This document shows, piece by piece, positions 23,994-48,020 of a stretch of 64,000 nt of DNA. This stretch comes from an uncultured Polyangiaceae bacterium (lineage in GTDB: Bacteria > Desulfobacterota > Binatia > UTPRO1): NCBI GenBank assembly GCA_964631985.1, contig CAZWAX010000001.1, positions 943 to 64,942 of the forward strand, in the 5' to 3' direction. The number at the start of each line of letters is the position of its first letter. The first letter of the stretch is position 1. The notes under the pieces are model-generated. The model saw only the letters and a list, made by a program, of their open reading frames with translations. It ran no database searches and had not been told where the DNA came from. The translations under genes were made by a program, and so were the position numbers.

Positions 23994-24410
23994 TCAGGTC
24001 CCTTGCGGCTCGACGTCGAGCCACAGCAGCTTCATGTCCTTGGGAAGGACGCTGAAAACGTCCCAGGCTTCGCCCGTCAGACCGCCTGGGCTACCGAGCA
24101 GCACTCGCAGCGTCCGGAACACCGCTCGCACGGCACGATCGGCTTCCGCATCGTCGGGCAAAACTCCTCGCTTCCGCACCCTTTCGATGAACTCATGGGC
24201 GTGTATCTTCTGCGGGGTCCGCTCCGGTATCTCGCCCTCCCGCCATACGCGTTGCAGCGGTAGCGGCAACTGAGCGGCGAGATCGCGGGATTCCTCGGCG
24301 GTCAACCGATCACGCAGCTCCTGGAACACGACCAAGGTCAACGCTTCGGCCCGCTCGCGATCGCATGCGAGATCCGCCGCAACGCTCTCATAGAAGCGAC
24401 CGGTTTCCAT
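23994..24410 (-). CDS. DUF2267 domain protein
   Basis: METGRFYESVAADLACDRERAEALTLVVFQELRDRLTAEESRDLAAQLP matches the DUF2267 pattern. Confidence 0.7.
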   Translation of the reverse strand: METGRFYESVAADLACDRERAEALTLVVFQELRDRLTAEESRDLAAQLPLPLQRVWREGEIPERTPQKIHAHEFIERVRKRGVLPDDAEADRAVRAVFRTLRVLLGSPGGLTGEAWDVFSVLPKDMKLLWLDVEPQGT

Positions 24411-24616
24411 ACCAGCGGAAAGCAGCGATCGTGCCAGGCGGCGAACCGCGTAGCGAGCATTTCCCGTCGCGGCGATTCGCGGCCCTGAGAATCTCGAGGG
24501 GTTGTCTTCTCATTCGCAACAACACGGCTCGTGGCTGAGCTTGTCCCGAACCAGCCCGCGTTCTGCAGGATTTCCTCGACCTCCGGATCGTCGATCTCTG
24601 CGCGACCCGGAGGGAG

Positions 24617-24662
24617 GATCGAATCGGTTGCGAAAGTGGACGCGCTCGCAACCAATTCGAAC
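24617..24662. repeat. 17-bp imperfect inverted repeat (GATCGAATCGGTTGCGA / TCGCAACCAATTCGAAC, 15 of 17) with a 12-nt loop, at the proximal edge of the A/T-richer island
   Basis: Seen directly. Lies in the non-coding stretch upstream of the DUF2267 gene. Confidence 0.5.
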
Positions 24663-24714
24663 CGCCGCGCAGATTCCGCTTCACTTTTCGCTGCTTGAGA
24701 CGGGGCAGCCGTTT

Positions 24715-24882
24715 CCGTACCAAACCATCGCCGAGCGAGCCCTCCAGCTTCATCGGTTGGGGATGTCCGATAGCTCCATTGCTCGCTCGCTTGGTGTCAA
24801 CGACAAGACGGTCGCCAAGTCGATTCGTTGGATCATAGCGGTGCATACCGGTGCGCATTCAGAGACGCCAGAAGGGGCCTGA
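24715..24882 (+). pseudogene. Isolated HTH fragment resembling a transposase/resolvase N-terminal HTH (remnant)
   Basis: ...YQTIAERALQLHRLGMSDSSIARSLGVNDKTVAKSIRW then stop. It has the HTH_23/IS630-like shape but no catalytic domain follows. Confidence 0.35.
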
Positions 24883-24903: not shown

Positions 24904-25657
24904 CTAACCGTGTCGGTATGTTTCGATACGAAGCCGCACAGAAACGAAATAAACTCCGGAAGGCGGGTCCAAATCCCGTCGGGGACGCTCGTCGCGTACA
25001 CGGAGACCCTTTCGTGCCATCCCGCCGCGCTGTCGCCGTCTGCGGTCCTCAGCGGCACGCCGACGCGCGGCACTTTCTTTGGTTGCTTGTGCCTCCCGCG
25101 GAAGCTCCCGAAGCATGATCTCGACAAATTTCTGATGCTCGAGGAATGCTCCTGCCGCGAACAATTCCAAGGGATCCGAGGTTTCAAGTGCCGCAGTCGC
25201 AACTGCGGCGACCTGGGCCGGTCGCCATACCGGCCCAAAGTCACCAAATTCAAAGCTCGCTTCCTGTTCCTTCCAGTAGTTCTCCAAGAAGGTCAGGTCT
25301 ACAGGAGGCGGCTGCCCCGACTCGGGCGTTCTCCCTGAATGGCTCAGGGGTTCGCGCTACGGTCGCCGCGCAGCGCTTGCACGCGAGGGTATGCCGGCGG
25401 ATCCGCGTGAACGCTTTGAGCTCTCCTGTCGGAACCCCGCGTTGTGCCTTCTTTGGTTGCATCGGTCCAAGCACGCGCTCCTGGAGAACAAAGTCACCCC
25501 CGAAAAGCGGGAGAGTGTTGCTGAGGTACACGTTAAGGATTCGCCAGGCGTCTCGTCGCCGACCTTGCTTGACTAGCGCTGCTTCCGCGTCGGCGATCGT
25601 CTGTCTCAGGTAGTCGTCCAGGCGTTGACGAGAAGGCCGCGAAGTAAGTTCACGCAT
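24904..25657 (-). pseudogene. Two overlapping same-strand ORFs in different frames (135 aa and 127 aa), possibly one frameshifted gene of unknown function
   Basis: ORFs 25250..25657 and 24904..25287 overlap by 38 nt in different frames. No recognisable domains. Confidence 0.25.
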
Positions 25658-26149
25658 CGAGTCGCTCCGACCGCGGGGTGTGGGGCATCTGCGACGGGCG
25701 ACTTCCCACCTTCGGGGAAGTCCCGAACTGCCGGAGTTTCCTAGAGAGCGGCCACGATAGAGCTGGAGAGCCTAGGACAAACGTGATGGCACCGGCTACG
25801 AGTGCGACGGTAGAAGTCAGACGTTCCCGATCGGGTCTCGGTCCATGGGGGCTTGCCAAGATACAAGGGTTTTTCGGGCACGATCTGGGCGGCGTACGCC
25901 TGTTAGGCGCCCCGCCAAGACCTAAGTATTCATGAGCATCGCCAGGTGTCCGACCCGCGGCCATTGCGATTCCGAAAGTCAGCATTTGACAGCTTTCGGT
26001 AGTGCTCGGTCGCCGGGTCGGTCATCCTGCGGGAAGGAGGCTAGGCCTTGTTGACCGGGGGCGTCAGGCCAGGCGCCACTCGTCACGAGTCCCGGGAGGA
26101 TGGGTCCGGCCCTAAGCAGAGGTCATCGGGTTCCACCCGTATTGCCGGC

Positions 26150-26203
26150 GGCTTCATGGGGGCTTCTCAAGTTTCCGGCTTCATGGGGGCTTTCCGGGAA
26201 ATG
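26150..26203 (+). repeat. Imperfect tandem duplication of a roughly 27-nt unit (GGCTTCATGGGGGCTT... twice)
   Basis: GGCTTCATGGGGGCTT occurs at 26150-26165 and 26177-26192. Non-coding context. Confidence 0.55.
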
Positions 26204-26320
26204 AGGGATTTCGGGCGTAACGGCGGTAACCGTAGTCGCCAAGGCCGGCGGGTCAATCGCAGCCGCGATCCTCGGGGTAAACGCCCTGGACAAACCGCCC
26301 GATAGACCCGTCGGAACAGG

Positions 26321-27019
26321 CTAACGGCGGAAGGTCGGGGATTTCTGCATCGCTATCAGCTTCTTACGGCGCGGGTTGGCAGCTCCTTGTGGCCGAGCTC
26401 GAAATCGATAGGCAGTCGCTGCCAACCCCAGAACAGACGGGTACCGATCCCCTGCGCAGCCGCCCACCGCGCCCGGACCACCCCCCCGGGCCGATGTCGT
26501 TAGGTAGCCGGCAGCCCAACGTATGGTGTCCCGCGCGGCTCGGCTCGCGACGATCCGCACTCGACGCTCACGGTACGGCGAATCGAACGAGATTCGCGCG
26601 CCGGGTGCCTGCGCCGCCTCGCCGATGCGGGCGATGTGACCGACGAAGTCTGCGACCTTTGCCTCGCAGACGTCGTAGGGCTCATGGCCAATGCCCCATA
26701 AGACCTCCCGAGAAAATTCGGCGATCTCGTCAACCTCGCCACGCGCGCGGGTGCCTTCGTCAGTGAAGAAGTGGCTGATGCCGAGGCCTGTTCGGTCGAT
26801 GTGGACGCCCCACGCCCACCGTTCGCCAGCGATAACGCCCGCGCCGTTGTAGTGCTCGAGCGTCACCCAGTAGGAGGCCTCATCGACGTCGATCGGCACC
26901 GCCGGCACCGCGCGCAGCAAAGCTTGCGTGCGTACAACGTTCTCGCGCTGCTTCGCCGTCGCGTCGGGATGCCCGCGAATCCAGTCGCCGAGCGCGATCC
27001 CCGCGTGCAGTAGCGGCAT
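26321..27019 (-). CDS. Hypothetical protein
   Basis: ORF with internal ATG at 27019 (MPLLHAGIALGDWIRGHPDATAKQ...). No recognisable domain, weak RBS. The C-terminal third is low complexity. Confidence 0.4.
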   Translation of the reverse strand: MPLLHAGIALGDWIRGHPDATAKQRENVVRTQALLRAVPAVPIDVDEASYWVTLEHYNGAGVIAGERWAWGVHIDRTGLGISHFFTDEGTRARGEVDEIAEFSREVLWGIGHEPYDVCEAKVADFVGHIARIGEAAQAPGARISFDSPYRERRVRIVASRAARDTIRWAAGYLTTSARGGGPGAVGGCAGDRYPSVLGLAATAYRFRARPQGAANPRRKKLIAMQKSPTFRR

Positions 27020-30649: not shown

Positions 30650-31283
30650 CCAGTAGTAGTCGGAGCTGCGGCGCCTTGTCGATCGAGTTGATTCGCGAGC
30701 GCCGCCATCGGCTCGTCGAGGGCCGAGGCTGCTGCGCCTTCACGCTCGACGGCGACGAAGCACGGTCGAGGACATCGGGGGCCCACATCGACAACGTCGA
30801 TCCGGGTGTAAGGTAGGCGGTATGCGGGGGCTCGCGGTGATCGCTGGCCTCGGGCTTGGTCGGCTGTCGTATACGGCACGCTATTGGCCCTGATCGCGGA
30901 ACCAAGGGCGAGGCGCACGGGTGCCGACCGCCGCCGCCGGTCGCGACGGTGAATGTCGCGGGCAACGTCCCGTGCTCGGGCTCGAAGGCAGCGAGGCTCG
31001 CGTCACCGCCGTGAGGCGGGTCCACGTCGAGGACGAGGAACCCCTAGGTCGTGCCGGTCGAGGTGCCGATGCTCGCGTGCGGCCACTCCGCCCACCAGCC
31101 GCGAATCGTGGCGGCATTGGTGGCGGCCTTCGCCGGCCAGCCCTTGAGCCTGGGGTGCTTGCCGGCGTCCGCGCAAACCTGGCCCTTCCGGCAGCTGCAG
31201 GTGCCTGCCTCGGTGATCTCGCAGACCGGCAAGACGCGCCAACCGCGGGCGGCGTAGCCGAGTGCAACCTCCAACAGCTCCAT
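30650..31283 (-). pseudogene. Bifunctional DNA primase/polymerase (PrimPol, N-terminal domain) gene disrupted by an in-frame TAG and downstream frame loss
   Basis: MELLEVALGYAARGWRVLPVCE...KHPRLKGWPAKAATNAATIRGWWAEWPHASIGTSTGTT-TAG(31044-31046)-GFLVLDVDPPHGGDASLAAFEPEHGTLPATFTVATGGGGRH matches the PrimPol N-domain consensus. Only about 125 codons are recognisable. Confidence 0.55.
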
Positions 31284-31672: not shown

Positions 31673-33034
31673 ATGAGCAGACGCACGCCGGGTGAACAGA
31701 TCGGGCCGTGGACCGTCGTCCGGGATATCGGACAAGGTGGCAACGGTGAAGTCTTCGAAGCGACCGCCGGGGACGGTGGCCGAGTCGCGCTGAAAGTCTT
31801 GAAGGCGATCAATCCAGCTGGGGAACCCTACGGCAGATTCTGCGATGAAGTAGCGATCATGACAAAGGTCGGACCGCACCCCGGGGTGCTCCCGCTCTTG
31901 GCTTCCTCGGTCCCACTTGAGCCCTCGCGAAAGAATCCGCCATGGCTTGCGACCCCAATCGCGGTTGCCATCCGTGACGCCATGACCGACCAGCCGGTCG
32001 AGGTGGTCGTGGAGGCAATCGCTAACGTCGCCGAGACGCTTGCCGATCTTCAAGCGAAGTTCGAGGCGTTCCATCGCGATATCAAGCCGCCGAATCTGTT
32101 CTCGTACGATGGCCGTTGGGTTGTTGGCGATTTTGGTCTGGCAGATTTTCCCCTGAACGCAGGGTTGACCCCGCAGAATCAGAAACTCGGGCCGGTGTTC
32201 TTCATCGCGCCCGAAATGTTGAGGGATGGCTCAGCTCCCAGCCCCACCGCGGATGTGTACTCGCTGGCCAAAACTCTTTGGGTACTAGCTACGGGGCAAA
32301 CCTACCCTCCTCAGGGCGAGCAGCGGATAGATGTCCCCGCGATGACCCTAGCCCACTTTATCGCTCACCCACGGGTGCGTACCCTGGACCGATTGGTCGA
32401 GCGCGCGACCCGGCACGATCCGACTGCGCGACCCTCAATGTCGGAGTTCGCGAGGGAGCTACGCGAATGGCTGAATCCAGTCGGGGCTGTTCCGTCACCG
32501 GGTGACGTGAGCCACCTTCGCGCGCGCTTCGAGGCTGCCGTTGAACCTGCGCGGCGCACCGCGGCCAGCGTTGAGGATTTGCAGGTGCAGGCAATGGAGA
32601 CCTTCAAAGAGATGCGCGTGGCAATGGCGCCTCTCTTGCGAACGGTCCAACAGGTTGTGCCAGCCGCATCGATGGATCCGCGGGACACGATAATTCTCGA
32701 GATTTGCGGGTACATCACTCCACTCAGCGAGCCGAAATTCATTTCGGCGAAGCATCTGACAATCATCGCCAGGCCGATTCCAGGCGATTCTTTCGCGCCC
32801 GTGTTGCGATGTGGCTTTGCACTGCAGCTGCGTCCCGACGGCAAGATGCACATTGGTGGTTCGGTTCTCGTTGGCGGACAAACCAAAGCCGATCAGCAAT
32901 GGAAGGGAATGTTTCGGGAGATGGTGTCAGTAGGGTCGCCGCGAGAACCCAACGCAGCAATGGAATGTGTGGCCGCGGTGCAAGCGGAGCTTCCGAGAGC
33001 CCTGGAAGCCCTTGTCCAAGCGTTGGAAAGGTAG
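31673..33034 (+). CDS. Hanks-type Ser/Thr protein kinase with an uncharacterised roughly 170-aa C-terminal domain
   Basis: GQGGNGEVFEA (Gly loop), VALKVLK (VAIK), HRDIKPPNL (catalytic loop), VGDFGLADF (DFG), APE. The C-terminal part has no recognisable motif. Confidence 0.8.
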   Translation: MSRRTPGEQIGPWTVVRDIGQGGNGEVFEATAGDGGRVALKVLKAINPAGEPYGRFCDEVAIMTKVGPHPGVLPLLASSVPLEPSRKNPPWLATPIAVAIRDAMTDQPVEVVVEAIANVAETLADLQAKFEAFHRDIKPPNLFSYDGRWVVGDFGLADFPLNAGLTPQNQKLGPVFFIAPEMLRDGSAPSPTADVYSLAKTLWVLATGQTYPPQGEQRIDVPAMTLAHFIAHPRVRTLDRLVERATRHDPTARPSMSEFARELREWLNPVGAVPSPGDVSHLRARFEAAVEPARRTAASVEDLQVQAMETFKEMRVAMAPLLRTVQQVVPAASMDPRDTIILEICGYITPLSEPKFISAKHLTIIARPIPGDSFAPVLRCGFALQLRPDGKMHIGGSVLVGGQTKADQQWKGMFREMVSVGSPREPNAAMECVAAVQAELPRALEALVQALER

Positions 33035-38388: not shown

Positions 38389-41300
38389 TCAAAGACTCCC
38401 AGCGTCAGGATCGGGCGTCATGATAGGCCACGGTCGACCGGAGGCAAGATCGGGATGGCGCGGCCCGGCTTCCGGTGAGCCGTACTCATCCCAGATCCGG
38501 TCTACTTGGTTCAGGCAACGCGCGGCTGCGTCCAACGCCCCACCGTCTGTCGTCAGTGCAAGAAGTTTCTCGCGAAGTTCAACGGCAGGGACGGGAACAA
38601 TCGTGAACGCCCCCTTCAAATTCTCGGAAGGTACATGCTGGGTGACCACGCGCCCGATCGCCCGCCGCGAGATGAGAGAGCGCCAACCTCCCTCAAAGCT
38701 GAGTAGAAGTAGTACGCCTTCGGCATCGGGATTCTCCACGACGGCCTCGGCGAGCATTGCTAGGCCCGGCGTTGATGCGCCGTTGCTGAGGAACCCATAG
38801 ACGTGGGCACGCAGCGCAGGATGTGCGTCGAATAACTCGCCGATGTGGCCGGCCATGTGCCAGCGATCGAGGTTCCCGTCCGCAAAGGAACCGCCTGCAG
38901 CCAAGTCCACAAAGCGGCGCGCGGCGGAGAGGGTTCTCCGGCGCGTGACGGCGTCGCGCCACACGTGACTGTCATAGAAGGCGGGACAGGCTTCAGCAAA
39001 AGCAAAGAGCGCGTTTTCAGCGTCAACACCAGGTGCTTCGCCGAAGGCACGGATCATTTCCTCCAAACGATCGGGCCTTCGTTGCTCCTCCGGCAGGGTC
39101 TGAACAACAGTGAGCGCCTCAGCTGGAAAATTCGTGAACGGCAGTAGTCGCAGCCATTCACTGACTTCGTAGCCATCACTCAGGATCCAGCTTTGGGTTC
39201 TGCCAGCCTCCATGACCTCAGCGAGGCCTGTCTTCACGACGCCGATGTCGACGATGTGACCGGACAGCACTTGGTTCAGAAGTAGTGCGGCCCGTAAGCG
39301 GCGTGGTGCGATGGCGATCAGACTTTGAACCGTCGCATCACGCTGGCCATGCGGCAGCCGCGATGCCACGACGCCAAGCGCGAGGCCGAGCTTTTTCCGC
39401 TCTTCCGGCACGCCGTCGGCGATCAGTGGCTCAAGCGCTGCGAAGATTGTCTCCGCTTCCACCGAAGTCGCTGAAGGATTGGCGGCGCGAGCGGCTCTTT
39501 TCTCTTCCACGCGTGAGAAATCCGGACCGCCGAAAACCCGCCTGCTGTTCGGCGGATCGTTCGCCTTCTGCCATCTGGCCGCGAGGACGTGCGCGGCAGC
39601 TTCGCCGAAATGGTCGTCGATAAGATACTCTCGCATCAAAGCGGCTGTCTCCGGAGCGTCGATGGACAGGAACGCGTGCTGGTACTCATTCGTATGCGGT
39701 GTGATGGCTTCGGTCGCGGCTTCGCTGTGGGCTCGCCCACCGGCTGCTTGCGCTTCGGCACGGAAGGCGCGATAGTGGCGGAGGTTGTCGTCCAGCAAGC
39801 GCCTCAACAATGGCAGCAGCGCGATAGAGGGGGCCTGGCTTGCTAGCGTTGCGATGCTAGCCGTCTGCCAGCGCTTCGCGGTACCGGAAGCCAGCATGCG
39901 GTCGCCCCACTCCTGGGCGATTGCCTGAATAGTCGCACGTGAATCAGCGTCGAACGGTCTGCCGTGATCGCCCTCCCCACTTGGATGACGCGAGAGAAGC
40001 CCTGCCAAGCGCGCCATTTGGTCGTTATCGGCTTGCAGAGAGCGGGCATGGATGGCGGCAACGAGACTGGCGCCGCGGGCATGCGCGAGCCGACGCAAAA
40101 GGGTGTGGTAGCGGTCACTTGCGGCTTGGTCGTATGTACCGTCCACATTCAGCCGCGCCCGTGCTTCGTTCAGTGCCTCGATCATGCGGCCGACGGCCAA
40201 CGGTCCGAGCGCGGAAGCCGCGGCTTCTCCGCGGTCATGCGGCCGGGTGGCGTCCATCAGCGCAAGTTCCAGTAGTGCGTCGTCTTCGAGACTGAAACAG
40301 GCTGCAGCGAGAATATCATCGGCTCCGTAGAATAAGGTTCGCCCGGTGCGCACGCGGGTGAGGAGGCCGCTCGCGACAGCACGGGGATAACGCTGGCGCG
40401 CTTCGTAGACGAGATGAACCGCCGCGTCCCGCCCCTCGGTTTCCATCGACCCGATGAAGTCGGCCAGCTCTAAAGCCCGGTCTTCGGCAAAATCCGAGTA
40501 CACGATCGAGTGAAGCCGGTCGTAATCCGAAACTCCTGTCGCGATCTCCCGCTCGCGCGCAGCGGCGAGGCGCTCCTTGACGCGCTCGTCGGGAACGTTG
40601 TGGACGAACCTGTTGCGCGCAACCAGGTCGATGGTCTCGTCGCCAGCGTACCGCAGCACGTCGGCGACGTGTCGATCCGCGCCCCGAAAAGCCAGCGCCT
40701 CAACCGTCGAGACTTGAACTTCAGTCGCGGGATCATCGCTTGCGATAGCGGTCGCGAGATCGAGACCGTCGATGCCGCTGTTGGATGCCATCTCGTGCAG
40801 CAGGACGGTCCGCACCTTGGCCGACAGCCCACAGATCCTCGTCACGGCATCACTCCCGAGGATTGACGGTCGGAACCGGCTGCAGTTGCGCAGCGCCTTG
40901 AGACTCGTCTGATCGTCCTCGTGCGTGATGAGCGGCCAGACCGCGTCAAGGAACTCAGGGCGTCCCGACGCGAGCATAAAACGCAATGCGCGATCCACCT
41001 TGCCCGGCGTATGCCAGCGAGCGACGAGCCCCCGGATTGTTGGGGCGATGGGCGCCCACACTTCCTCCGTCGCCCTGAAGATCATCTCGGCCGCGAGAAT
41101 GGGATCGACTTCGAACGCCGAGAGAATGGCCTTGCCGCACACGGCCTGCTGGTGCGCATCGCTGCGCGCCATACGTTCCACCGCGAAGAGAATGGCTTCT
41201 TCCCATATGGGAAGGTTGAATACTTCAGCCTTCAGCGCCTCGCGGCTCCTCGGATCATCGGCCGCCGCGGTAGTCCGGCGCTCTACGGAGTGAGAGGCAT

Positions 41301-42729
41301 ACCACTCCTGAAACTGCTGGTGCTGGAAAGAGTAGCCCAGCGTGCCGCCCGTGCGGATCAGAACATGATTGCTGGCGAGCACGTCCAGCACGTCGTCCGG
41401 CTGGGACGGGATAGTGATCTGCCCGTCCCCGATCAGCGTTGCCTGGGTTTGAGAGACGGTCCGCCGGGCGTTCGTGTCGGCGATAGACGTGTTCTGTGTC
41501 CGCGTGGCGAACACGGCGAGACACTCCAGATGATCCTGCTGGAAACCATGCACAACGTCGCGCAGCGTCTCGGCGCGACGGGCATCAGTTTCGTGCACAG
41601 TCACGAAGTGCCGCAGGAGTTCCTCCTTGGTCGTTGGGAAGGGCGCGCCTTCAGGAAGGGAGAGCAGTGCGGTGAGATAGAGTGGGATCGTTACGAGCTC
41701 GCGGACACCAGGCGTGCGCCAAGCCTGATCGACGATCCTCAGGCCTGCTTCGCCGCGCATCGCGGCGGCGATCTGCGTTTGCTGCTTTTGGTTGAGCGGC
41801 AGGAGATCGACGCGCATCCCGACGAAAGGAACGTCGAGGGCGTGCTTGCGGGTCGAGACGATGAAGCCGAGCTCAGGTAGCTCCGCCATCAGGCGATCGA
41901 CCTGTACGCGCGCTCGCGTCCGCCCGTCCGGACTCAATTCGTTCCAGCCGTCGAGCAGCAGGACAACACCGGGTTTGGCGGCGACTGCACGGAAGTCGTC
42001 TTCCGATATGGCCTGGAACCCCTGACGAGTGAGGATGGACCCTAGCAGTGACAACGTTTGCGTGGCCCAATCGGCGAGCGGGATGATGATGGGCGTGCCT
42101 CCGGCGTCGGCGATGAGGGCTTGGGCGATCTGGAATAGTGTCGTCGTCTTTCCTGTGCCGGGTCCGGCGACGAGGATTAGATCGTCGAGCGACGTGACGA
42201 CGCGCGCGAGCGCGGTTGTCGTCGCAGGCTGACCAAAGCCTTCTACCTCCAGCGTGAGCGCTACGGCACTGGATGGCCATTTGGTTGTGCGGCGGAAAAC
42301 AGAGAGATCCGCCTCAGCAGCGGCGCGAAGACGATCCGCCGGTTGCCCGACGGCAATAGGCAGAGGCCCACGGGACGCTTCGTTCTGCAACACGCGGCGT
42401 CGAGCGTCGTCTTCCGCTAGCTTCTTCCATTCGCGTAGACGCTCGATGGTGAATTCTGGATCCTTATCGTCGATAGCCTTGCCGTGATTGCGACACATCC
42501 AGATGCCGTTGCTTGCGGAACGGCGTTCCGCGGATGACATGTTTGCGTCACCGCGGGGGCTGCGGTCGGATTCCACGGCGCCGATGATGTGCGCCGCCGT
42601 GCCGAGATTGATTTCACCGCCGACGGTCAGCGCACGACAAGATGGATAGGAGCAAAGCCAGCCCGCGCGCTTAGCGATCTGGGTCTTTATCCGGTCTGTG
42701 AACTCGTCTCTGTTTCTGTTTCCTGGCAT
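38389..42729 (-). CDS. STAND-class NTPase: N-terminal HNH-like nuclease motif, NACHT NTPase module and long C-terminal HEAT/ARM-like repeats (antiviral-STAND/Avs-like architecture)
   Basis: HNH-like segment: C-x2-C (CSYPSC)...AAHII...N-x4-C-x2-H (NGIWMCRNH). Walker A: LILVAGPGTGKTTTL. NACHT-type Walker B: VVLLLDGWNEL. Roughly 900 aa of helical repeats follow. Confidence 0.8.
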   Translation of the reverse strand: MPGNRNRDEFTDRIKTQIAKRAGWLCSYPSCRALTVGGEINLGTAAHIIGAVESDRSPRGDANMSSAERRSASNGIWMCRNHGKAIDDKDPEFTIERLREWKKLAEDDARRRVLQNEASRGPLPIAVGQPADRLRAAAEADLSVFRRTTKWPSSAVALTLEVEGFGQPATTTALARVVTSLDDLILVAGPGTGKTTTLFQIAQALIADAGGTPIIIPLADWATQTLSLLGSILTRQGFQAISEDDFRAVAAKPGVVLLLDGWNELSPDGRTRARVQVDRLMAELPELGFIVSTRKHALDVPFVGMRVDLLPLNQKQQTQIAAAMRGEAGLRIVDQAWRTPGVRELVTIPLYLTALLSLPEGAPFPTTKEELLRHFVTVHETDARRAETLRDVVHGFQQDHLECLAVFATRTQNTSIADTNARRTVSQTQATLIGDGQITIPSQPDDVLDVLASNHVLIRTGGTLGYSFQHQQFQEWYASHSVERRTTAAADDPRSREALKAEVFNLPIWEEAILFAVERMARSDAHQQAVCGKAILSAFEVDPILAAEMIFRATEEVWAPIAPTIRGLVARWHTPGKVDRALRFMLASGRPEFLDAVWPLITHEDDQTSLKALRNCSRFRPSILGSDAVTRICGLSAKVRTVLLHEMASNSGIDGLDLATAIASDDPATEVQVSTVEALAFRGADRHVADVLRYAGDETIDLVARNRFVHNVPDERVKERLAAAREREIATGVSDYDRLHSIVYSDFAEDRALELADFIGSMETEGRDAAVHLVYEARQRYPRAVASGLLTRVRTGRTLFYGADDILAAACFSLEDDALLELALMDATRPHDRGEAAASALGPLAVGRMIEALNEARARLNVDGTYDQAASDRYHTLLRRLAHARGASLVAAIHARSLQADNDQMARLAGLLSRHPSGEGDHGRPFDADSRATIQAIAQEWGDRMLASGTAKRWQTASIATLASQAPSIALLPLLRRLLDDNLRHYRAFRAEAQAAGGRAHSEAATEAITPHTNEYQHAFLSIDAPETAALMREYLIDDHFGEAAAHVLAARWQKANDPPNSRRVFGGPDFSRVEEKRAARAANPSATSVEAETIFAALEPLIADGVPEERKKLGLALGVVASRLPHGQRDATVQSLIAIAPRRLRAALLLNQVLSGHIVDIGVVKTGLAEVMEAGRTQSWILSDGYEVSEWLRLLPFTNFPAEALTVVQTLPEEQRRPDRLEEMIRAFGEAPGVDAENALFAFAEACPAFYDSHVWRDAVTRRRTLSAARRFVDLAAGGSFADGNLDRWHMAGHIGELFDAHPALRAHVYGFLSNGASTPGLAMLAEAVVENPDAEGVLLLLSFEGGWRSLISRRAIGRVVTQHVPSENLKGAFTIVPVPAVELREKLLALTTDGGALDAAARCLNQVDRIWDEYGSPEAGPRHPDLASGRPWPIMTPDPDAGSL

Positions 42730-42870
42730 CGGGCAGCGCGCTACTCAAAGGTTCGCCCGGCGACCCGGGCGGGGGCGACTATACCAGTTCGGGATGTAGG
42801 CTCGAATGGAGAGCTTCACACGCTTCGAACTTCTCGATTGATCTACAGGGTGATCAGGCAAACGCGATGA

Positions 42871-43059
42871 CGGTACCGCCTGGCCTATCACCGCATGAAG
42901 GCCACCGAGGAGGCGCCGCATCAGCTACTGGTCGTGGGCGTTCGCTACGGGGACAAACTGTCGCGCGACGAGGGTCGGTGGCGCATCACCGACCGGATCG
43001 TTCACATGGACTGGCAGAGCCGGCACCCGGTGGCGGTTCCGGCGCTGTGCAGAGACTGA
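42871..43059 (+). pseudogene. C-terminal fragment of an NTF2-like/SnoaL-like protein
   Basis: ...HQLLVVGVRYGDKLSRDEGRWRITDRIVHMDWQ has the characteristic SnoaL/DUF4440 C-terminus. An in-frame stop lies immediately upstream, so no N-terminal half exists. Confidence 0.4.
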
Positions 43060-43147
43060 GCGACGTCGCGACGCAACCAAGCGTGGGGACGTTGCTCCCG
43101 TGGGATCGATGCTGCCGCGCGCCTTCATGGGGCTCTCCCTGTCCGCT

Positions 43148-43208
43148 GCCATCAACGGTCGACGAGTTCGCCTGCCGATACGGGGCCGGCGAGGGACGTT
43201 GTGGAATC
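43148..43208 (+). repeat. Direct repeat copy A (about 60 nt), downstream of the 701-aa gene
   Basis: GCCATCAACGGTCGACGAGTTCGCCTGCC...CGAGGGACGTTGTGGAATC. The first 29 nt match copy B at 26 of 29. Confidence 0.5.
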
Positions 43209-43323
43209 ACGACCGGTGGATCTGCGCATGCGAGCGCTCGCCTCTGTTGCGTGGTTCTGACCGGCGACAGCCTCCGGGCTCCGCTCACTCTAGAGTTGTC
43301 TAGAAGTCACGCCCTCGCCGCGA

Positions 43324-45429
43324 CTAACCTTCTTCTGCGCACGACGGACGTGGCGTAAGATAGACCGCAACAGGTGACCACTTGGTGATGATCTGCGTGC
43401 AGTCATCGTCCAAGACTTTCGAGCACGGGCACCCCCGATACGGCGTCGTGCACAGCGAACACTCACTGTCGTCGACGATCATAGCTACCGCAGGAACCAC
43501 GCATCCGGCTCGCGCGGCTTCGGCAGGGTAGGTCTTGTCGTCGGGGTCGGGTAGGTACTCGACGAGGACGTTCTTCCCGACGACCTTGAGATCGTACAAC
43601 CCACGTTCGAGCTCGAGGCGGTCTATCTCAAGGACTCTGTTAAGGGTCAGGCACTCGAGTGCATCCGGTCTCGGCTCATCCGAGTCGCCATCGCCAACGA
43701 GCTTCTTGAGGGCGTCGCCCAATCGCACGGGATCGCCGAGCAGCGGGGCTACGACTGTAGACCACTGAGGCAAGAACTCGGCCACGTCGTCGAGGTGTCC
43801 GCACACGGAAACAATCAAAGCCGAGCAGCCAATGGGATAGGCGATCGAAAATCCGATCAAGCGATCTGACCGGCGCACATACCGCCGGACGAGTTCCTGC
43901 AGAGCCTCTATGGTCGTCGCTACCGCGGAGACCTCTGGATGCCATACCGTTCCGAAGTTCACGTCCAGATCCTCGATCTTTACCAGCAGGACGTCAGCGT
44001 TCAACTCGATCCGCATCTCGTGACGCGCGACCGCCTTTACGAGTTCCAACGACTCCGCCTCCACGAATGGACCTCCGCCATCGCCGATCTCCAATTTGCG
44101 GGCTGGCAAGATGTGCAAGCGGTCGCGCGCGAGAATCCGCTCGAGTGGAAGGAAACTCATGCCTGCTCGTATTCCTCCCCCCCGCGCAATGCGGAACGAG
44201 GCCGGAGAATCCTTACTCGGGGCATCACCAGCTTCTGGCGCTGGGATGGGGCCGAACTGCGCGGCCGGTGGTGCGCCCAGATATTCGCCGACGAGATGGT
44301 TGTCGCGGAAGTAATCGGAGAGCAGACGTTTCCAGAGCGCGACAGGGATGTCTCCGTCGACGCGCCACAGCTTCAGATAGTCTGGCGCGCGGTTCGCCTT
44401 CGAGAGGTCTTTGCCTCGTCGATCTGTGAGGCCGTCCTCATCGTAGATCCGCACTGCCCCATCGAAGTGATCGAGGTTGCCGTTCGGTGCGACAATCGAA
44501 TGTGCGTACCGACACGCGTATCGGACTCCATCCACTCCGAACGTCGAGGCCGCGCGGACTTCCTCCACGGCGAAGATCCGCTCTCCATCGCGGTCGCCCC
44601 ATCGGAAGTCTGTGAATTCAATTCCGCTGTAGAAGCGTTCGGCGTCGGTCGCCCGGTGTTGCGACACCCCGGCGGGAATGGTCGACAGGTCGTCGTTGAA
44701 CTCAGGACCCCACCAATACTGTTGTTCCATGATCGGCCTGTAGCTCTCGGCGAGGCCAACCATGTCGGGATCAAGAGCGACACGTGGACGAAGAGCAGCG
44801 GGCACGCCCGCGAGTGCGGAGAGAAAAGGGGCATTCAGGGAGTTAACTGGCACACCGCTCCGGCGAAGATCGCGGTGGGCGAAAAGGGCTAGGGGTCCGT
44901 GTCTGTATACCCCCGGACCAATGACGTCCACCTTGCTCAGATCGATGAGTCCGTCGCCGTCCAACTCCTTGAAGACCGCGGCGGCCACCCTCGTCGCAAT
45001 CCCGATATTGAACACGGCCACGCATTCCGCGACCAACAGCTGTAGGTCCCCACTAAGGCCGGCAGCGAGGAGCTTCAGCAGGGTCGCAAATTCGTCCTGC
45101 CGGGCGACGATCTTCTTCCCGCGAAACTCGGTCAATGCACCGCCGAGGTTTGCCCGCTCCTCAGGCGAATCAGCGACAAGCATCTGAGCGGTGAGACGAC
45201 AGACGCTCGGCGCAAAAAACACCGCCGTGGGATATGTCCAGCCGAATGGCCGACTCATATCGTGAGAGACGAGGCCCGGAATCCCCGCCTCCCAGTTCTC
45301 CTGCAGCGCCTGCACCAGCGCACCGGGAGAGAATCGCGTGTTCGCCCGCGTAAGTTGGTCGGTGGCGAGGGTCGCGATCAACTTCATGGCAGCCGAGGTC
45401 ATACCAGACGGGCGCGAACGATTCCGCAT
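43324..45429 (-). CDS. Hypothetical 701-aa protein with a C-terminal Cys cluster (SECSLCTTPYRGCPCS), flanked by direct repeats
   Basis: Uninterrupted ORF in the A/T-richer island. No recognised domain. The start is uncertain because no SD precedes any of three N-terminal ATGs. Confidence 0.5.
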   Translation of the reverse strand: MRNRSRPSGMTSAAMKLIATLATDQLTRANTRFSPGALVQALQENWEAGIPGLVSHDMSRPFGWTYPTAVFFAPSVCRLTAQMLVADSPEERANLGGALTEFRGKKIVARQDEFATLLKLLAAGLSGDLQLLVAECVAVFNIGIATRVAAAVFKELDGDGLIDLSKVDVIGPGVYRHGPLALFAHRDLRRSGVPVNSLNAPFLSALAGVPAALRPRVALDPDMVGLAESYRPIMEQQYWWGPEFNDDLSTIPAGVSQHRATDAERFYSGIEFTDFRWGDRDGERIFAVEEVRAASTFGVDGVRYACRYAHSIVAPNGNLDHFDGAVRIYDEDGLTDRRGKDLSKANRAPDYLKLWRVDGDIPVALWKRLLSDYFRDNHLVGEYLGAPPAAQFGPIPAPEAGDAPSKDSPASFRIARGGGIRAGMSFLPLERILARDRLHILPARKLEIGDGGGPFVEAESLELVKAVARHEMRIELNADVLLVKIEDLDVNFGTVWHPEVSAVATTIEALQELVRRYVRRSDRLIGFSIAYPIGCSALIVSVCGHLDDVAEFLPQWSTVVAPLLGDPVRLGDALKKLVGDGDSDEPRPDALECLTLNRVLEIDRLELERGLYDLKVVGKNVLVEYLPDPDDKTYPAEAARAGCVVPAVAMIVDDSECSLCTTPYRGCPCSKVLDDDCTQIITKWSPVAVYLTPRPSCAEEG

Positions 45430-45713
45430 GCGCGCGGCAACGGTAGAGAAGCCTCCAGCGCCGGACGTGATCTTGGCTGGCTGCGAGGCAGCTCACCTGT
45501 CCTGTCGTTCCGATCCTCCAACTTCCGGATGCCAGATGGGACCGCCACAACGGATGAGACACCAGCTAGGGAGTTCGAACGCGGTACTGAGGTCGCAGCC
45601 GACCCCAGCACCTCGAAAACGGTTGCCTTGACGCAGAGGTGGGCCAACGACGTTTCGAGATCGCCGGGTTGGCCTTCCGCGAAGAGGTCCTAGAGGCTCG
45701 TTTCGTGTGCAAG

Positions 45714-45773
45714 GCCATCAACGGTTGACGGTTTCGCCTGCCTCCAAGGGTTCTCGAGGGACATTGCGGGATC
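45714..45773 (+). repeat. Direct repeat copy B (about 60 nt), upstream of the 701-aa gene
   Basis: GCCATCAACGGTTGACGGTTTCGCCTGCC...CGAGGGACATTGCGGGATC. Same orientation as copy A. Confidence 0.5.
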
Positions 45774-45854
45774 TTGGTGAGACGCGGCCACCGCGATCAT
45801 GTGCGCGATTTCCCTGGTCGTGCACGCTTCTTCGACAGGGCGGTGCTAGCTGCG

Positions 45855-45886
45855 TGAGTGGGTTCAAATCCCGGCGGGTTTGCACC
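45855..45886 (+). tRNA. tRNA-derived 3' fragment (T-arm GGGTTCAAATCCC plus acceptor-like tail); not a complete tRNA gene. Possible attachment-site remnant at the island boundary
   Basis: GTGGGTTCAAATCCCGGCGGGTTTGCACC. No D-arm or anticodon-arm partner sequence can be found upstream. Confidence 0.4.
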
Positions 45887-46145
45887 CTATTATTCCCGCA
45901 ATTCCCAATCCTTGTGAACGTAAAGTGGGCTGCGTAGCCCGCGGGATTGCCGGGGGTTTCCTCATCCGCGAACGATCTTCAGCATCGGCTGGTAGCGCCT
46001 TGCGGCTTCTTCTGGAAGCTCATCGAAGGTGGGGGCCCGACTAGCGTGACGCTCGCATCATTGCTGCTCTCCGGGTTGTCAGGTCAGAAGTGTTTCTTCG
46101 CTCGCCTGCCCACCGATCCTCGTAAGGAGAGACTCGCCGTAGCGG

Positions 46146-48020
46146 TCAGGGCTCGATGTTCCAGATGCCCATCATCCCGATGTCCTCGTGCTCGACGATG
46201 TGGCAGTGAAACACGGTCTTCCCCGCGTGATCCATGACCGGAACGAGCAGCGTGATGCTGCCGCCCTTGGGGACGATGACCGTGTCCTTGAGCCCGGGCA
46301 CGCGGGTGTAGAGGTCGGCGTAAGTCGCGAACGCGGGATCGGGACCGTTGGCCGACAGAACCTGCGCGGAGTTGACGTGCTGGTGCCAGGGGTGGTCCAT
46401 CCCGGTCTGGTTCACTATCTCCCAGACCTCGTAGGTGCCCACCTTCGAGTCGTGTTGGTACGCGCTCACGGTGCCATCGGCCATCTCGTCGAAGCTCACG
46501 CCGTTGATGGTTCCCCGGCCCATGAACATGCCGAGGACGAACCGCGTCCGCGGCAACGAGCCCGCGTCGATGGTGAGCCGCCTCGCCGCGGGGTCTACCT
46601 GGGCCGGGAGGACGTCGCCCATTTCCGCTCCTGCGTCTTCGAGCGTGAGGAGCGTCACCTGTGCCGAGGGAGCGCCTCCGAATCCGGGCATGCCGCCCAT
46701 CATCCCCATGCCTCCGCGGTCGTACGGCAGCGCGAGCAGCCGGAAGTTGCCGGCAGCGGGGGACGCCTGGACGAGCAAGTCGAGCCGCTCGGCGGGCGCC
46801 ACCAGGATCTCGCTTACGGAGTACGGCCGGTCGAGCAGACCTCCGTCGGTACCGATGACGTTGAGGGAATGCCCCTCGAGGCTCAGCCGGTAGAAGCGCG
46901 CCGTGCTGGCGTTGAAGATGCGCCACCGCTGCACTTGCCCGGGCCGGATCGCGAGAACGGGGTTCACCTGGCCGTTCACCATCACCAAGTTGCCCTCCTT
47001 CCCCATCACGTAATCCAGGATCGAGTCGTAGGGGGCCGGGCCTCCGCCCGAGAGCGAAATATCCTTGAGCACGAGGAGGTGGGTCTCGTACGCAGCCAGC
47101 GGGCTACCCGGCTCGTCGGCGACGTCGATGGGGCCGATCATGCCGCCCCAGATCTGCTCGGCGACCGCGCCGTGCTGATGCGGGTGGTAGAGCCCCATCG
47201 AGCCAGCGGGTTGCAGCGAAAGGTCGTACTCGTAGTCGAGGCTTCCTCCGCCGGCAGCGACCGACCTGAAGACGTCGTCCCCGGGCGTACCGTTCGGGTT
47301 GGTTGCCGGCGTGACATGCAGGCCGTGCGCGTGAAGATTCGTCACGAACCGCGGATGGCCGAGGAGGTTCGTGGCCCCACTGGCGGGGAGAGCGTTCGTG
47401 AAGTGCAGCCGCAGCAGGTCACCGCGCCTCGCCTGGATGACGGGGGCCACGAAGCCGCCGCCGTAGGTCAGGAACGTGGCCGTGGAGCCGCCGAGGTCGT
47501 CGGCGGCAGTTCGGGCCTCGATCGTGACGCCAACGACGTTGCCGTTCCGTGTGCTCGGCGCCACCGGGGGATCAGCGAATGCCGATCCTGGGGGCGGATC
47601 GGACGGCGGATGGCCCCTCCCCGCGTAGGCATGTGGCGCGTCACAATCTCCGCCCGGGCCAAAGAACGAGCCATCTCTGACGTAGCAACATGACTGAGGG
47701 CACTGGCCCTTTACCAGAAGACCGGCCGCGGCGCGCAAGCTGTTGACCCCGTCGGTGACGGTCATATGCCCGTCACCGTTCATGTCGCACGACGCCATGT
47801 AGTAGACGTCCGCGCCATCGCGCAGCTCGCAGGTGCTTGAGAGACCCGCGGCTGCTCGCAGCATCTGCACCCCGTCCGTGACGGTGACGGCTTGCCGCGA
47901 GTCGCCGCTGGTATGCCCGCACGCGGGCATCATGAAGGATCCTGGGTGGTGCGCTGCCGCTGATGTGGCCAACGTGGCACCGATCAGCACCGTGAACCAC
48001 GAAAGGACTCTCTTTTTCAT
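46146..48020 (-). CDS. Multicopper oxidase (three-domain laccase/CueO-like) with two N-terminal dockerin-like repeats
   Basis: GAGGAG RBS, signal peptide MKKRVLSWFTVLIGATLATSAAA. Cu-ligand motifs HAHGLH, HPHQHG, HPWHQH and HCHIVEHEDIGMMG. N-terminal TVTDGVQMLRAAAGL and CDMNGDGHMTVTDGVNSLRAAAGL repeats. Confidence 0.85.
   Translation of the reverse strand: MKKRVLSWFTVLIGATLATSAAAHHPGSFMMPACGHTSGDSRQAVTVTDGVQMLRAAAGLSSTCELRDGADVYYMASCDMNGDGHMTVTDGVNSLRAAAGLLVKGQCPQSCCYVRDGSFFGPGGDCDAPHAYAGRGHPPSDPPPGSAFADPPVAPSTRNGNVVGVTIEARTAADDLGGSTATFLTYGGGFVAPVIQARRGDLLRLHFTNALPASGATNLLGHPRFVTNLHAHGLHVTPATNPNGTPGDDVFRSVAAGGGSLDYEYDLSLQPAGSMGLYHPHQHGAVAEQIWGGMIGPIDVADEPGSPLAAYETHLLVLKDISLSGGGPAPYDSILDYVMGKEGNLVMVNGQVNPVLAIRPGQVQRWRIFNASTARFYRLSLEGHSLNVIGTDGGLLDRPYSVSEILVAPAERLDLLVQASPAAGNFRLLALPYDRGGMGMMGGMPGFGGAPSAQVTLLTLEDAGAEMGDVLPAQVDPAARRLTIDAGSLPRTRFVLGMFMGRGTINGVSFDEMADGTVSAYQHDSKVGTYEVWEIVNQTGMDHPWHQHVNSAQVLSANGPDPAFATYADLYTRVPGLKDTVIVPKGGSITLLVPVMDHAGKTVFHCHIVEHEDIGMMGIWNIEP

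What the first reader, a model, noticed from the sequence alone, without database searches (positions are those of the whole stretch)
45855..45886. Orphan tRNA 3' fragment (T-arm GGGTTCAAATCCC) without the rest of the gene
GTGGGTTCAAATCCCGGCGGGTTTGCACC carries the canonical T-stem/T-loop and an acceptor-like tail. No D-arm or anticodon arm can be paired upstream. Such fragments are classic attL/attR scars of tRNA-targeting integrases. This one sits exactly where the A/T-richer island meets the copper/metal locus, so either region could have been acquired via this site. No integrase gene survives in the window.
Basis: seen in the sequence. Interest (0 to 1): 0.5.

Follow-up and report, generated by a model that had tools for sequence, protein, structure and literature searches.

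The report
Attachment-site scar of a decayed island
The tRNA-like snippet is most likely the right-hand attachment-site repeat of an old, integrase-less mobile island of about 21 kb carrying phage-defence genes, of the kind that targets the end of the tRNA-Glu gene; this is an ordinary type of feature.

Summary
No tRNA or tmRNA is found anywhere in the window.

A T-loop motif alone is weak evidence: 0.34 are expected per window. The fragment, however, has a partner. At 24965-24987, same strand, GGGTCCAAATCCCGTCGGGGACG is 22/23 identical (28/29 with flank) to the 3' end of a tRNA-Glu(UUC) common in soil metagenomes. There that end occurs about as often as an orphan att fragment as in intact genes.

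The finding matches the same 19-nt core 18/19. A match that good is expected in fewer than 0.002 windows.

The two repeats bracket 20.9 kb of lower-GC DNA. It carries defence-type genes and a Prim-Pol pseudogene 47% identical to the replicase of a textbook tRNA-Glu island (L171).

The mismatches are split as a single crossover would split them. This fits an authentic tRNA-Glu-like attP recombining with a non-tRNA look-alike site. On that reading the "acceptor tail" CGGGTTTG is host flank, not tRNA.

No integrase and no intact tRNA-Glu are in the window, and no empty site was found.

Verdict: the att-scar reading holds, with corrections. The acquired region is the island on the left, not the copper locus. 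This is a known kind of feature and of modest interest.

The parts
45860..45882 (+). Site 1 (the finding): GGGTTCAAATCCCGGCGGGTTTG. Read as attR. The core 45860-45878 is 18/19 identical to the tRNA-Glu 3'-end core. The tail TTTG and the G at 45874 are not tRNA-Glu-like.
   Evidence: nhmmer tRNA-Glu profile: second-best hit in the window, E=0.1, profile positions 53-71
45860..45887 (.). The same bases form an imperfect palindrome, GGGTTCAAATCC / GGGTTTGCACCC. As RNA this is an 11-bp hairpin of -17 kcal/mol.
   Evidence: z = -2.8, 2/200 shuffles fold as well; a weak CRISPR-DR31 look-alike alignment shows the same pairing
24964..24992 (+). Site 2, the partner repeat, read as attL: GGGTCCAAATCCCGTCGGGGACG at 24965-24987. 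It is 22/23 identical to the tRNA-Glu(UUC) 3' end, and 28/29 including flank to locus L196. No tRNA 5' part lies upstream.
   Evidence: nhmmer E=4e-4, profile positions 49-75; 5'-truncated tRNA model hit, 12 bits
24988..45859 (.). Body of the putative decayed integrative element, about 20.9 kb. GC is about 0.62, against 0.69 in the first 20 kb of the window.
   Evidence: composition; content
30930..31280 (-). Prim-Pol replicase pseudogene. It is 47% identical to residues 35-148 of the 643-aa Prim-Pol/AAA_25 protein of the textbook tRNA-Glu island in L171. It has an in-frame stop, and the helicase part is missing.
   Evidence: E=6e-20
38389..42729 (-). Cargo: a NACHT/NCAB2 STAND NTPase with an HNH-like endonuclease N-terminus, i.e. 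an antiviral-STAND-like defence gene.
31673..33034 (+). Cargo: a Ser/Thr protein kinase resembling PD-T4-6 and mad6 defence kinases.
43324..45429 (-). Cargo: a 701-aa protein (692 aa as called) of unknown function. Its homologues sit in mobile or defence contexts in unrelated phyla. It is the last gene before site 1.
45889..45918 (-). Promoter-like TTCACA-18-AATAAT, ending 2 nt before the palindrome and reading towards the 701-aa gene.
   Evidence: 1 found; 0.2 expected
46146..48020 (-). Right flank: multicopper oxidase. In relatives, similarity covers this gene only (48075-46142). Two Logan contigs end at 46184.
23994..24410 (-). Left flank: a DUF2267 gene, first of a stress-gene row (Usp, PNPOx-like, CBS) outside the island.

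Best explanation
The fragment is the right-hand attachment-site repeat (attR) of an old integrative element of about 20.9 kb lying at about 24965-45882. The partner repeat (attL) is at 24965-24987.

The element belongs to the class whose tyrosine integrase recombines in the T-arm region of a tRNA gene, here tRNA-Glu(UUC). Its attP carried a copy of the tRNA's end: GGGTTCAAATCCCGTCGGGGACG, followed by CTCGT.

I infer that it integrated not into a tRNA gene but into a look-alike secondary site in the spacer between a stress-gene row and the multicopper oxidase. That site would have been GGGTCCAAATCCCGGCGGGTTTG.

A crossover inside CAAATCCCG then gives exactly the two hybrids seen:
- Left: host GGGTC plus element ...GTCGGGGACG.
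- Right: element GGGTT plus host ...GGCGGGTTTG.

On this reading the T-loop half of the finding comes from the element. The 'acceptor tail' is host spacer, and no later mutation needs to be invoked.

The element has since decayed. Its integrase and excisionase are gone, its Prim-Pol replicase is a pseudogene, and most of its length is now defence-type cargo.

Shown: the two repeats, their match to tRNA-Glu, the Prim-Pol pseudogene, and the absence of a tRNA or a recognisable integrase.

Inferred: that integration happened, the secondary site, and the crossover position.
For: 1. Site 2 is a real tRNA-Glu 3' end.
- The corrected 23-mer gave more than 120 metagenome hits.
- Among 117 assessable ones, 52 are intact tRNA-Glu(UUC) genes and 55 are orphan fragments starting at the anticodon loop. 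Some stand in tandem on one contig.
- blastn gives 28/29 identity. nhmmer gives E=4e-4.

2. Site 1 is the second-best hit of the tRNA-Glu profile in the whole window.
- It matches 18/19 in the core. Matches with up to 2 mismatches number 2 against 0.00 expected. That is fewer than 0.002 per window by simulation.
- It lies on the same strand as site 2.

3. The mismatches are partitioned. Site 2 differs from tRNA-Glu only at position 5. Site 1 differs only at positions 15 and 20-22.

4. The interval has lower GC.
- It holds a Prim-Pol pseudogene homologous (E=6e-20) to the replicase of L171.
- L171 is a textbook island: tRNA-Glu, Prim-Pol/AAA_25, an HTH_17 protein (read as an excisionase), a tyrosine integrase, then a tRNA-Glu fragment.
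- In both, Prim-Pol lies antisense to the tRNA direction.

5. Sites 18/23 identical to the 23-mer are expected at 0.75 per Mb, so a look-alike target is available in any genome of this composition.

6. T-stem-region att sites make up 1836 of 3919 islands in Islander (PMC4383910).

7. No tRNA lies within 25 kb upstream of site 2. This fits a non-tRNA target.
Against: - No integrase, excisionase or other recombinase was detected. This covers Pfam, PHROGs and PADLOC scans of the island's ORFs and a six-frame scan next to site 2.
- No empty site and no second copy of the element's arms was found.
- Relatives are not syntenic.
- A look-alike site as good as 17/19 in the core is expected only about 0.15 times per 6-Mb genome.
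- Site 2 was found by its likeness to site 1, so the two are not wholly independent observations.
- The mismatch partition has a chance probability of roughly 1/3 to 1/5.
- One mismatch (T/C at loop position 2) may fall inside the overlap region, where heterology hinders tyrosine recombinases.
- T-arm-only tRNA-Glu fragments are rare among the metagenome examples: about 2, against 55 of the anticodon-loop type.
Confidence: 0.5

Rival explanations
1. This is the reader's literal version: a genuine displaced tRNA 3' end. An element, or a tandem pair of elements, integrated into a real tRNA-Glu gene. Sites 1 and 2 are the displaced 3' fragments. The intact tRNA was later lost or lies outside the window. 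Site 1, the older fragment, then decayed.
For: - Orphan tRNA-Glu fragments and tandem arrays are very common in the metagenome loci (L091 has three copies).
- Islander lists 125 tandem arrays.
- Both sites are orphan 3'-type fragments on the same strand, as in tandem arrays.
Against: - No tRNA lies anywhere in the window. The 25 kb upstream of site 2 are ordinary high-GC metabolic and stress genes.
- GAC to TTT is three adjacent changes next to 18/19 conserved bases. That looks like a junction rather than random decay.
- CGGGTTT cannot pair with a tRNA-Glu 5' end (GTCCCCG).
Confidence: 0.22
2. The fragment comes from a different tRNA. The closest real ends found are two. One is tRNA-Trp of Gaiella/Thermoleophilia (CCGGGTTCGAATCCTGGCGGGTTTG), which has the same acceptor tail and G73 and matches 21/23. 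The other is a metagenomic tRNA-Arg(UCU) (GGGTTCAAATCCCGGCGGGTACG), also 21/23.
For: - In one search, 9 of 47 hits are real tRNA-Trp genes with the tail CGGGTTTG.
- L153 carries the tRNA-Arg(UCU).
- A1-U72 with G73 is the bacterial tRNA-Trp pattern (my own knowledge).
Against: - The window's thiolase is closest to Candidatus Binatia (88%), not Actinomycetota.
- The Trp-type tail was found only in that actinobacterial group among 185,579 species.
- The other 38 hits of that scan are non-tRNA. This is close to the roughly 35 I estimated by hand from database size and pattern information. It shows how easily such near matches arise.
- The exact 22-mer has 0 hits.
- This reading does not explain the tRNA-Glu partner at 24965.
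Confidence: 0.07
3. It is a chance T-loop look-alike with no integration history. If it does anything, the 28-nt palindrome acts as an operator or as a 5' hairpin of the transcript that starts at the adjacent promoter-like site for the 701-aa gene.
For: - The T-loop motif is expected 0.34 times per window.
- The hairpin has z = -2.8.
- A promoter-like site ends 2 nt before the palindrome.
- The general tRNA model gives no hit.
- There is no integrase.
Against: - 18/19 identity to the very tRNA end that is present, nearly intact, 21 kb away on the same strand. That is fewer than 0.002 per window.
- The island between the repeats holds a mobile-element replicase pseudogene.
- The hairpin's inner stem is inherent to this kind of T arm plus tail.
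- The palindrome occurs only once in the window.
Confidence: 0.13
4. It is a lone CRISPR repeat remnant of the Rfam CRISPR-DR31 type.
For: CRISPR-DR31 is the best Rfam match to the 33-mer: 17.2 bits, E=0.04 for that tiny search.
Against: - The score is half the gathering score of 35.
- 11 of the 37 model positions are missing.
- No repeat array lies in the window.
- There is no match in the gathering-score scan of the window.
Confidence: 0.02

Closest known systems
tDNA-targeted genomic islands as catalogued by Islander (Hudson, Lau & Williams 2015, PMC4383910), T-stem-region att class
   Same: - Direct repeats made of a tRNA 3' end mark both ends of a lower-GC island.
- Both repeats lie on the same strand.
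- The identity block starts in the T arm.
- Mobile-element replication gene remnants lie inside.
- The cargo is accessory (defence) genes.
   Different: - No intact target tRNA stands at the left end.
- No integrase is present.
- The repeats are short (19 nt) and imperfect (17/19).
- The right repeat lacks the tRNA tail.
The 7.7-kb tRNA-Glu(UUC) island in metagenome locus L171 (tRNA-Glu, Prim-Pol/AAA_25, HTH_17 protein, tyrosine integrase, tRNA-Glu fragment)
   Same: - The same tRNA end forms the repeat.
- Prim-Pol is 47% identical over 117 aa and antisense to the tRNA direction.
- Small unknown ORFs lie between Prim-Pol and the left repeat.
   Different: - L171 is intact: it has the tRNA, the integrase and the HTH_17 gene.
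- Its repeat starts at the anticodon loop (45 nt), not at the T arm.
- It is three times shorter and carries no defence cargo.
Integration of temperate elements at secondary (pseudo-att) sites when the primary attB is absent or a poorer match
   Same: - Both junctions are hybrids of an authentic and a look-alike site.
- The mismatches are partitioned on either side of a crossover point.
   Different: - This is inferred from sequence only. No integrase, empty site or attP is available to confirm it.
- The comparison rests on my own knowledge of secondary-site integration (for example in lambda), not on a tool result.

Membership tests
tRNA or tmRNA gene | A complete cloverleaf (acceptor, D, anticodon and T arms) recognised by ARAGORN or the Rfam tRNA/tmRNA models | tested here: not met
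   - ARAGORN finds 0 genes in the window.
- Rfam finds none at gathering score.
- No tRNA hit for site 1 at E<=10, even when offered as a truncated sequence.
- Site 2 gets only a 12-bit 5'-truncated hit.
tDNA-integrated genomic island (Islander criteria) | A fragment of the target tRNA gene, in direct orientation, marking the island end | tested here: met
   - Site 2 is 22/23 (28/29) identical to the tRNA-Glu 3' end.
- Site 1 matches 18/19 in the core.
- Both are on the + strand, 20.9 kb apart.
tDNA-integrated genomic island (Islander criteria) | An intact (regenerated) target tRNA gene at the other end | tested here: not met
   - There is no tRNA in the window.
- The sequence upstream of site 2 is unrelated to tRNA-Glu, 7/18 by my own count on the sequences printed.
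- The rest of the genome could not be examined.
tDNA-integrated genomic island (Islander criteria) | An integrase gene inside the island | tested here: not met
   No Phage_integrase, resolvase or transposase hit was found. This covers the island ORFs scanned against Pfam, PHROGs and PADLOC, and a six-frame scan of 24980-26330.
tDNA-integrated genomic island (Islander criteria) | Foreign character: composition shift and mobile-element genes | tested here: met
   - GC is 0.62 against 0.69.
- A Prim-Pol pseudogene is homologous to that of a bona fide tRNA-Glu island.
- Defence-type cargo is present.
tDNA-integrated genomic island (Islander criteria) | An empty site in a related genome, or an excised circular form | tested here: inconclusive
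   - None was found.
- The only contigs with the flank genes carry the island.
- Relatives are not syntenic.
- The element's arms are absent from viral contigs.
CRISPR array (Rfam CRISPR-DR31) | Several regularly spaced copies of the repeat, scoring above the family threshold | tested here: not met
   - There is a single copy.
- It scores 17.2 bits against a threshold of 35.
- No array appears in the repeat search.

The most novel reading that the evidence does not exclude
The two hybrid repeats preserve the exact products of an integration by a tRNA-Glu-targeting element into a non-tRNA look-alike site in a Binatia-type genome. The element later lost its integrase and became a fixed defence island holding an antiviral-STAND-like NACHT protein, a kinase and an unknown 701-aa protein. 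If so, tRNA-targeting elements can seed defence islands away from tRNA genes, and such islands can be traced by half-tRNA repeats that standard tRNA-anchored island finders miss.
Probability: 0.45. Interest if true: 0.4.

Novelty: new member of a known kind. Interest (0 to 1): 0.3.

Why it matters
- It gives both borders of a defence-gene island in a little-studied phylum (Binatia-type MAG). It also shows that the island, not the copper locus, is the acquired part.
- Integrase-less islands away from tRNA genes can still be delimited by short tRNA-end repeats. Methods that need an intact tRNA and an integrase, such as Islander, would not call this one.
- The side observation is a useful pointer for island mining. 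In the fetched soil-metagenome loci, orphan copies of this tRNA-Glu 3' end are about as common as intact genes.
- None of this changes what is known about how such elements work.

Tried and rejected
- **Low-threshold ARAGORN** calls a 'tRNA' at both sites. So do 37% (ps80) and 93% (ps60) of random pieces of the window. Rejected.
- **tmRNA end.** Only the 13-nt hairpin matches, at 6 bits.
- **CRISPR-DR31.** The match is weak and there is no array.
- **Exact 22-mer.** 0 hits in 185,579 species genomes and in the JGI metagenomes, so there is no identical tRNA end anywhere.
- **19-mer in viral contigs.** 25 hits, mostly phage tRNAs of many isoacceptor types. This shows the 19-mer is tRNA-compatible but not diagnostic.
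- **Gaiellales tRNA-Trp and a tRNA-Arg(UCU)** as parents, each 21/23. Set aside because the host looks like Binatia and the partner repeat is Glu-type.
- **Synteny.** Relatives share only the oxidase gene itself or only the thiolase. No island-free locus was found.
- **Homologues of the 701-aa protein** have unrelated upstream regions without the motif.
- **Integrase remnants**: none.
- **Empty-site look-up** through the DUF2267 protein returned only the same contig.
- **Reconstructed attP arms** are absent from viral contigs.
- **A third GGGTNCAAANCC half-site or other dispersed copies**: none beyond the two sites.

Full report
**Observation**

The sequence GTGGGTTCAAATCCCGGCGGGTTTGCACC is at 45858-45886 on the + strand. 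It lies in a 716-nt gap between a 701-aa gene of unknown function (43324-45429, -) and a multicopper oxidase (46146-48020, -).

No tRNA or tmRNA is found here or elsewhere in the window:
- ARAGORN finds none in the window.
- Rfam finds nothing at gathering score.
- The Rfam tRNA model gives no hit at E<=10, even when the fragment is placed at the start of the searched stretch so that a 5'-truncated match is allowed.
- Lowering ARAGORN's threshold does produce a call. It also does so in 37% of random 251-nt pieces of the window, so that call means nothing.

As a T arm the fragment is imperfect: three G-C pairs, one T.G pair and a G/G mismatch.

A T-loop motif by itself is weak evidence. GGTTCRANTCC is expected 0.34 times per window, and 26% of shuffles contain one.

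**First alternatives**

The same 28 bases form an imperfect palindrome, GGGTTCAAATCC / GGGTTTGCACCC. It folds into an 11-bp hairpin with z = -2.8. It starts 2 nt after a minus-strand promoter-like site.

The best Rfam look-alike is a CRISPR repeat family at half its threshold score. There is no array.

The exact 22-mer spanning T arm and tail has no match in one genome from each of 185,579 species or in the JGI metagenomes. No known tRNA therefore ends exactly like this.

Real tRNAs do come close:
- tRNA-Trp genes of Gaiella/Thermoleophilia end CCGGGTTCGAATCCTGGCGGGTTTG.
- A metagenomic tRNA-Arg(UCU) ends GGGTTCAAATCCCGGCGGGTACG.

Each matches 21/23. However, 38 of the 47 hits are not tRNAs. 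That is near the roughly 35 I estimated by hand from database size and pattern information, so near matches of this kind are cheap. The window's thiolase is also closest to Candidatus Binatia (88%), not to Actinomycetota.

**The partner repeat**

A search for the 13-mer with one mismatch found a second site at 24965 on the same strand. That position is where GC falls from about 0.69 to about 0.62.

The two sites share 17 of 19 bases. A second match with up to 3 mismatches is expected 0.04 times per window.

I corrected the one T-loop anomaly of site 2 (TCC to TTC) and allowed either tail. This pattern gave more than 120 metagenome hits, and almost all are GGGTTCAAATCCCGTCGGGGACG. That is the 3' end of a tRNA-Glu(UUC) gene:

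GTCCCCGTCGTCTAGCCCGGCCTAGGACACCGCCCTTTCACGGCGATAACACGGGTTCAAATCCCGTCGGGGACGCCA

Among 117 assessable matches:
- 52 are intact genes.
- 55 are orphan 3' fragments that begin at the anticodon loop, some repeated on one contig.
- About 2 are fragments beginning at the T arm.

This is the signature of a heavily used integration target.

Site 2 is 22/23 identical to this end, and 28/29 including five bases downstream of a CCA-less gene in L196. A tRNA-Glu profile run over the whole window gives site 2 as its best hit (E=4e-4, positions 49-75). The finding is its second-best hit (E=0.1, positions 53-71).

The finding matches the tRNA-Glu core 18/19. Matches with up to 2 mismatches number two in the window against none in 100 shuffles. 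In 40 Mb of simulated sequence of the window's composition there was one 17/19 match and no 18/19 match.

With the tRNA-Glu model fixed by site 2, a chance origin of site 1 has a probability well below 1%.

**What lies between the repeats**

The interval 24988-45859 holds these recognisable features:
- A NACHT/NCAB2 STAND protein with an HNH-like N-terminus.
- A Ser/Thr kinase resembling defence kinases.
- A protein resembling the defence candidate PDC-S48.
- Several proteins with no family match.
- At 31280-30930 (-), a stretch 47% identical (E=6e-20) to residues 35-148 of a 643-aa Prim-Pol/AAA_25 protein. It has an in-frame stop and no helicase part, so it is a replicase pseudogene.

The matching Prim-Pol protein comes from locus L171, one of the loci pulled in by the tRNA-Glu pattern. 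L171 is a textbook island. Its parts, in order, are:
1. tRNA-Glu.
2. Three small ORFs.
3. Prim-Pol/AAA_25.
4. An HTH_17 protein (read as an excisionase).
5. A tyrosine integrase.
6. An orphan tRNA-Glu fragment.

In both L171 and the window, Prim-Pol lies antisense to the tRNA direction. Small unknown ORFs sit between it and the left repeat.

Left of site 2 are ordinary stress genes: DUF2267, Usp, PNPOx-like and CBS.

No integrase, excisionase, resolvase or transposase was found. This holds for the ORFs scanned across the window and for a six-frame scan of the 1.3 kb next to site 2.

**Mechanism**

The differences from tRNA-Glu are split between the two repeats:
- Site 2 differs only at position 5, on the 5' side.
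- Site 1 differs only at positions 15 and 20-22, on the 3' side.

A single reciprocal crossover within CAAATCCCG would give exactly these two hybrids. The partners would be an authentic attP (GGGTTCAAATCCCGTCGGGGACG-CTCGT) and a look-alike host site (GGGTCCAAATCCCGGCGGGTTTG). No later mutation is needed.

Several points fit this reading:
- There is no tRNA 5' half upstream of site 2, and no tRNA within 25 kb.
- The tail CGGGTTT could not pair with a tRNA-Glu 5' end.
- Crossovers in the T-stem region are one of the two main classes of tDNA islands: 1836 of 3919 in Islander (PMC4383910).
- Look-alike sites 18/23 identical to the 23-mer occur at about 0.75 per Mb in sequence of this composition.

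Points against:
- A look-alike as good as this one in the core is expected only about 0.15 times per 6-Mb genome.
- The mismatch partition could arise by chance about one time in three to five.

I put this model at about 0.5. A genuine displaced tRNA end that later decayed gets about 0.2. Another parent tRNA gets about 0.07, and pure chance with or without a hairpin or operator role about 0.13.

**Borders and population data**

The window is identical to a Logan contig covering 14655-46184. A second Logan contig from a sister sample covers 42762-46184. Both end at 46184.

Relatives carrying the oxidase at 92%, 79% and 76% nucleotide identity match the window only over the gene itself (48075-46142). 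Their flanks are unrelated and hold no tRNA.

So the strain-specific DNA starts at the oxidase stop codon, 264 nt to the right of the fragment. These relatives are not empty-site versions.

No island-free locus could be found.

**Comparison and verdict**

This works like a tDNA-targeted genomic island. Against Islander's criteria:
- Met: the fragment criterion and foreign character.
- Not met, within the window: the intact tRNA and the integrase.
- Undecided: the empty-site test.

The tail is probably host spacer, not tRNA. The acquired region is the island on the left, not the copper locus.

It is a new, decayed member of a well-known kind and is of modest interest.

Noticed in passing
window 43148-43210 and 45714-45775: An imperfect direct repeat of about 62 nt, with a 29-nt core at 90% identity: GCCATCAACGGTYGACG..TTCGCCTGCC...CGAGGGAC.TTG.GG.ATC. 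One copy lies upstream of the NACHT gene and its 67-aa leader ORF. The other lies upstream of the 701-aa gene. The reading frames differ, so it looks like a shared regulatory or module-boundary element rather than coding sequence.
   Followed up: partly
window 30930-31280 (-), possibly to 30429: A Prim-Pol replicase pseudogene with an in-frame stop. The AAA_25 helicase part of the intact homologue in L171 is missing.
   Followed up: yes
window 38389-42729 (-): A 1446-aa NACHT/NCAB2 STAND NTPase. Its first 110 residues or so match HNH-type endonuclease effectors of defence systems (PADLOC PDC-M68A, SAVED-HNH). It is likely an antiviral STAND (Avs-like) protein.
   Followed up: partly
window 42739-42761 and 46184: In a sister sample the 3.4-kb module holding the 701-aa gene and the fragment (42762-46184) sits on its own contig. 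Its left end diverges just upstream of the NACHT start codon. Both Logan contigs stop at 46184, inside the oxidase 3' end. The defence-gene content of this locus therefore varies within the population.
   Followed up: partly
window 24580-24663 and 24767-24852; L008 923-1008 and 1109-1194: Next to site 2, a small ORF ending in a helix-turn-helix is 87% identical at the nucleotide level over 86 nt to an unannotated stretch of a related MAG contig that also carries the oxidase. The conserved part contains the inverted repeat GGTTGCG...CGCAACC. It is not clear whether this is a gene, an RNA or an element end.
   Followed up: partly
metagenome loci L084-L203 (e.g. L091 4272, 9048, 11142; L094 2937 and 10382; L171 33-110 and 7795-7836): In the fetched soil-metagenome loci, the 3' end of this tRNA-Glu(UUC) occurs about as often as an orphan fragment (55) as in intact genes (52). 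One contig carries up to three copies. This tRNA is a major integration hot spot.
   Followed up: partly
genome loci L038, L040, L048, L062, L063, L065, L070, L074, L080: tRNA-Trp genes of Gaiella, Gaiellaceae and Thermoleophilia MAGs have an unusual acceptor stem: A1-U72 followed by G.U or A-U pairs (AGGCCCG / CGGGTTT). Among the species representatives scanned, this was seen only in that group.
   Followed up: no
window 46146-48020 (-) N-terminus and 1990-2160: The multicopper oxidase has two dockerin-like repeats (VTVTDGVQMLRAAAGL) at its N-terminus. Similar repeats occur in a gene near 2 kb. The oxidase gene alone is shared with relatives, in different contexts each time, as if it moved as a single-gene cassette.
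   Followed up: partly
window 43324-45429 (-); loci L003-L006: The 701-aa protein has no Pfam, PHROG or PADLOC match, yet it has full-length homologues in Alphaproteobacteria, Betaproteobacteria and Longimicrobiaceae. Their neighbours include a PD-(D/E)XK protein, a TrwB-like protein, an ImmA/IrrE-type peptidase, a Schlafen/AlbA_2 protein and a partial 673-aa gene that from its sequence may be a UvrD-like helicase (my reading, no family hit). It is a candidate unknown defence or mobile-element gene.
   Followed up: partly
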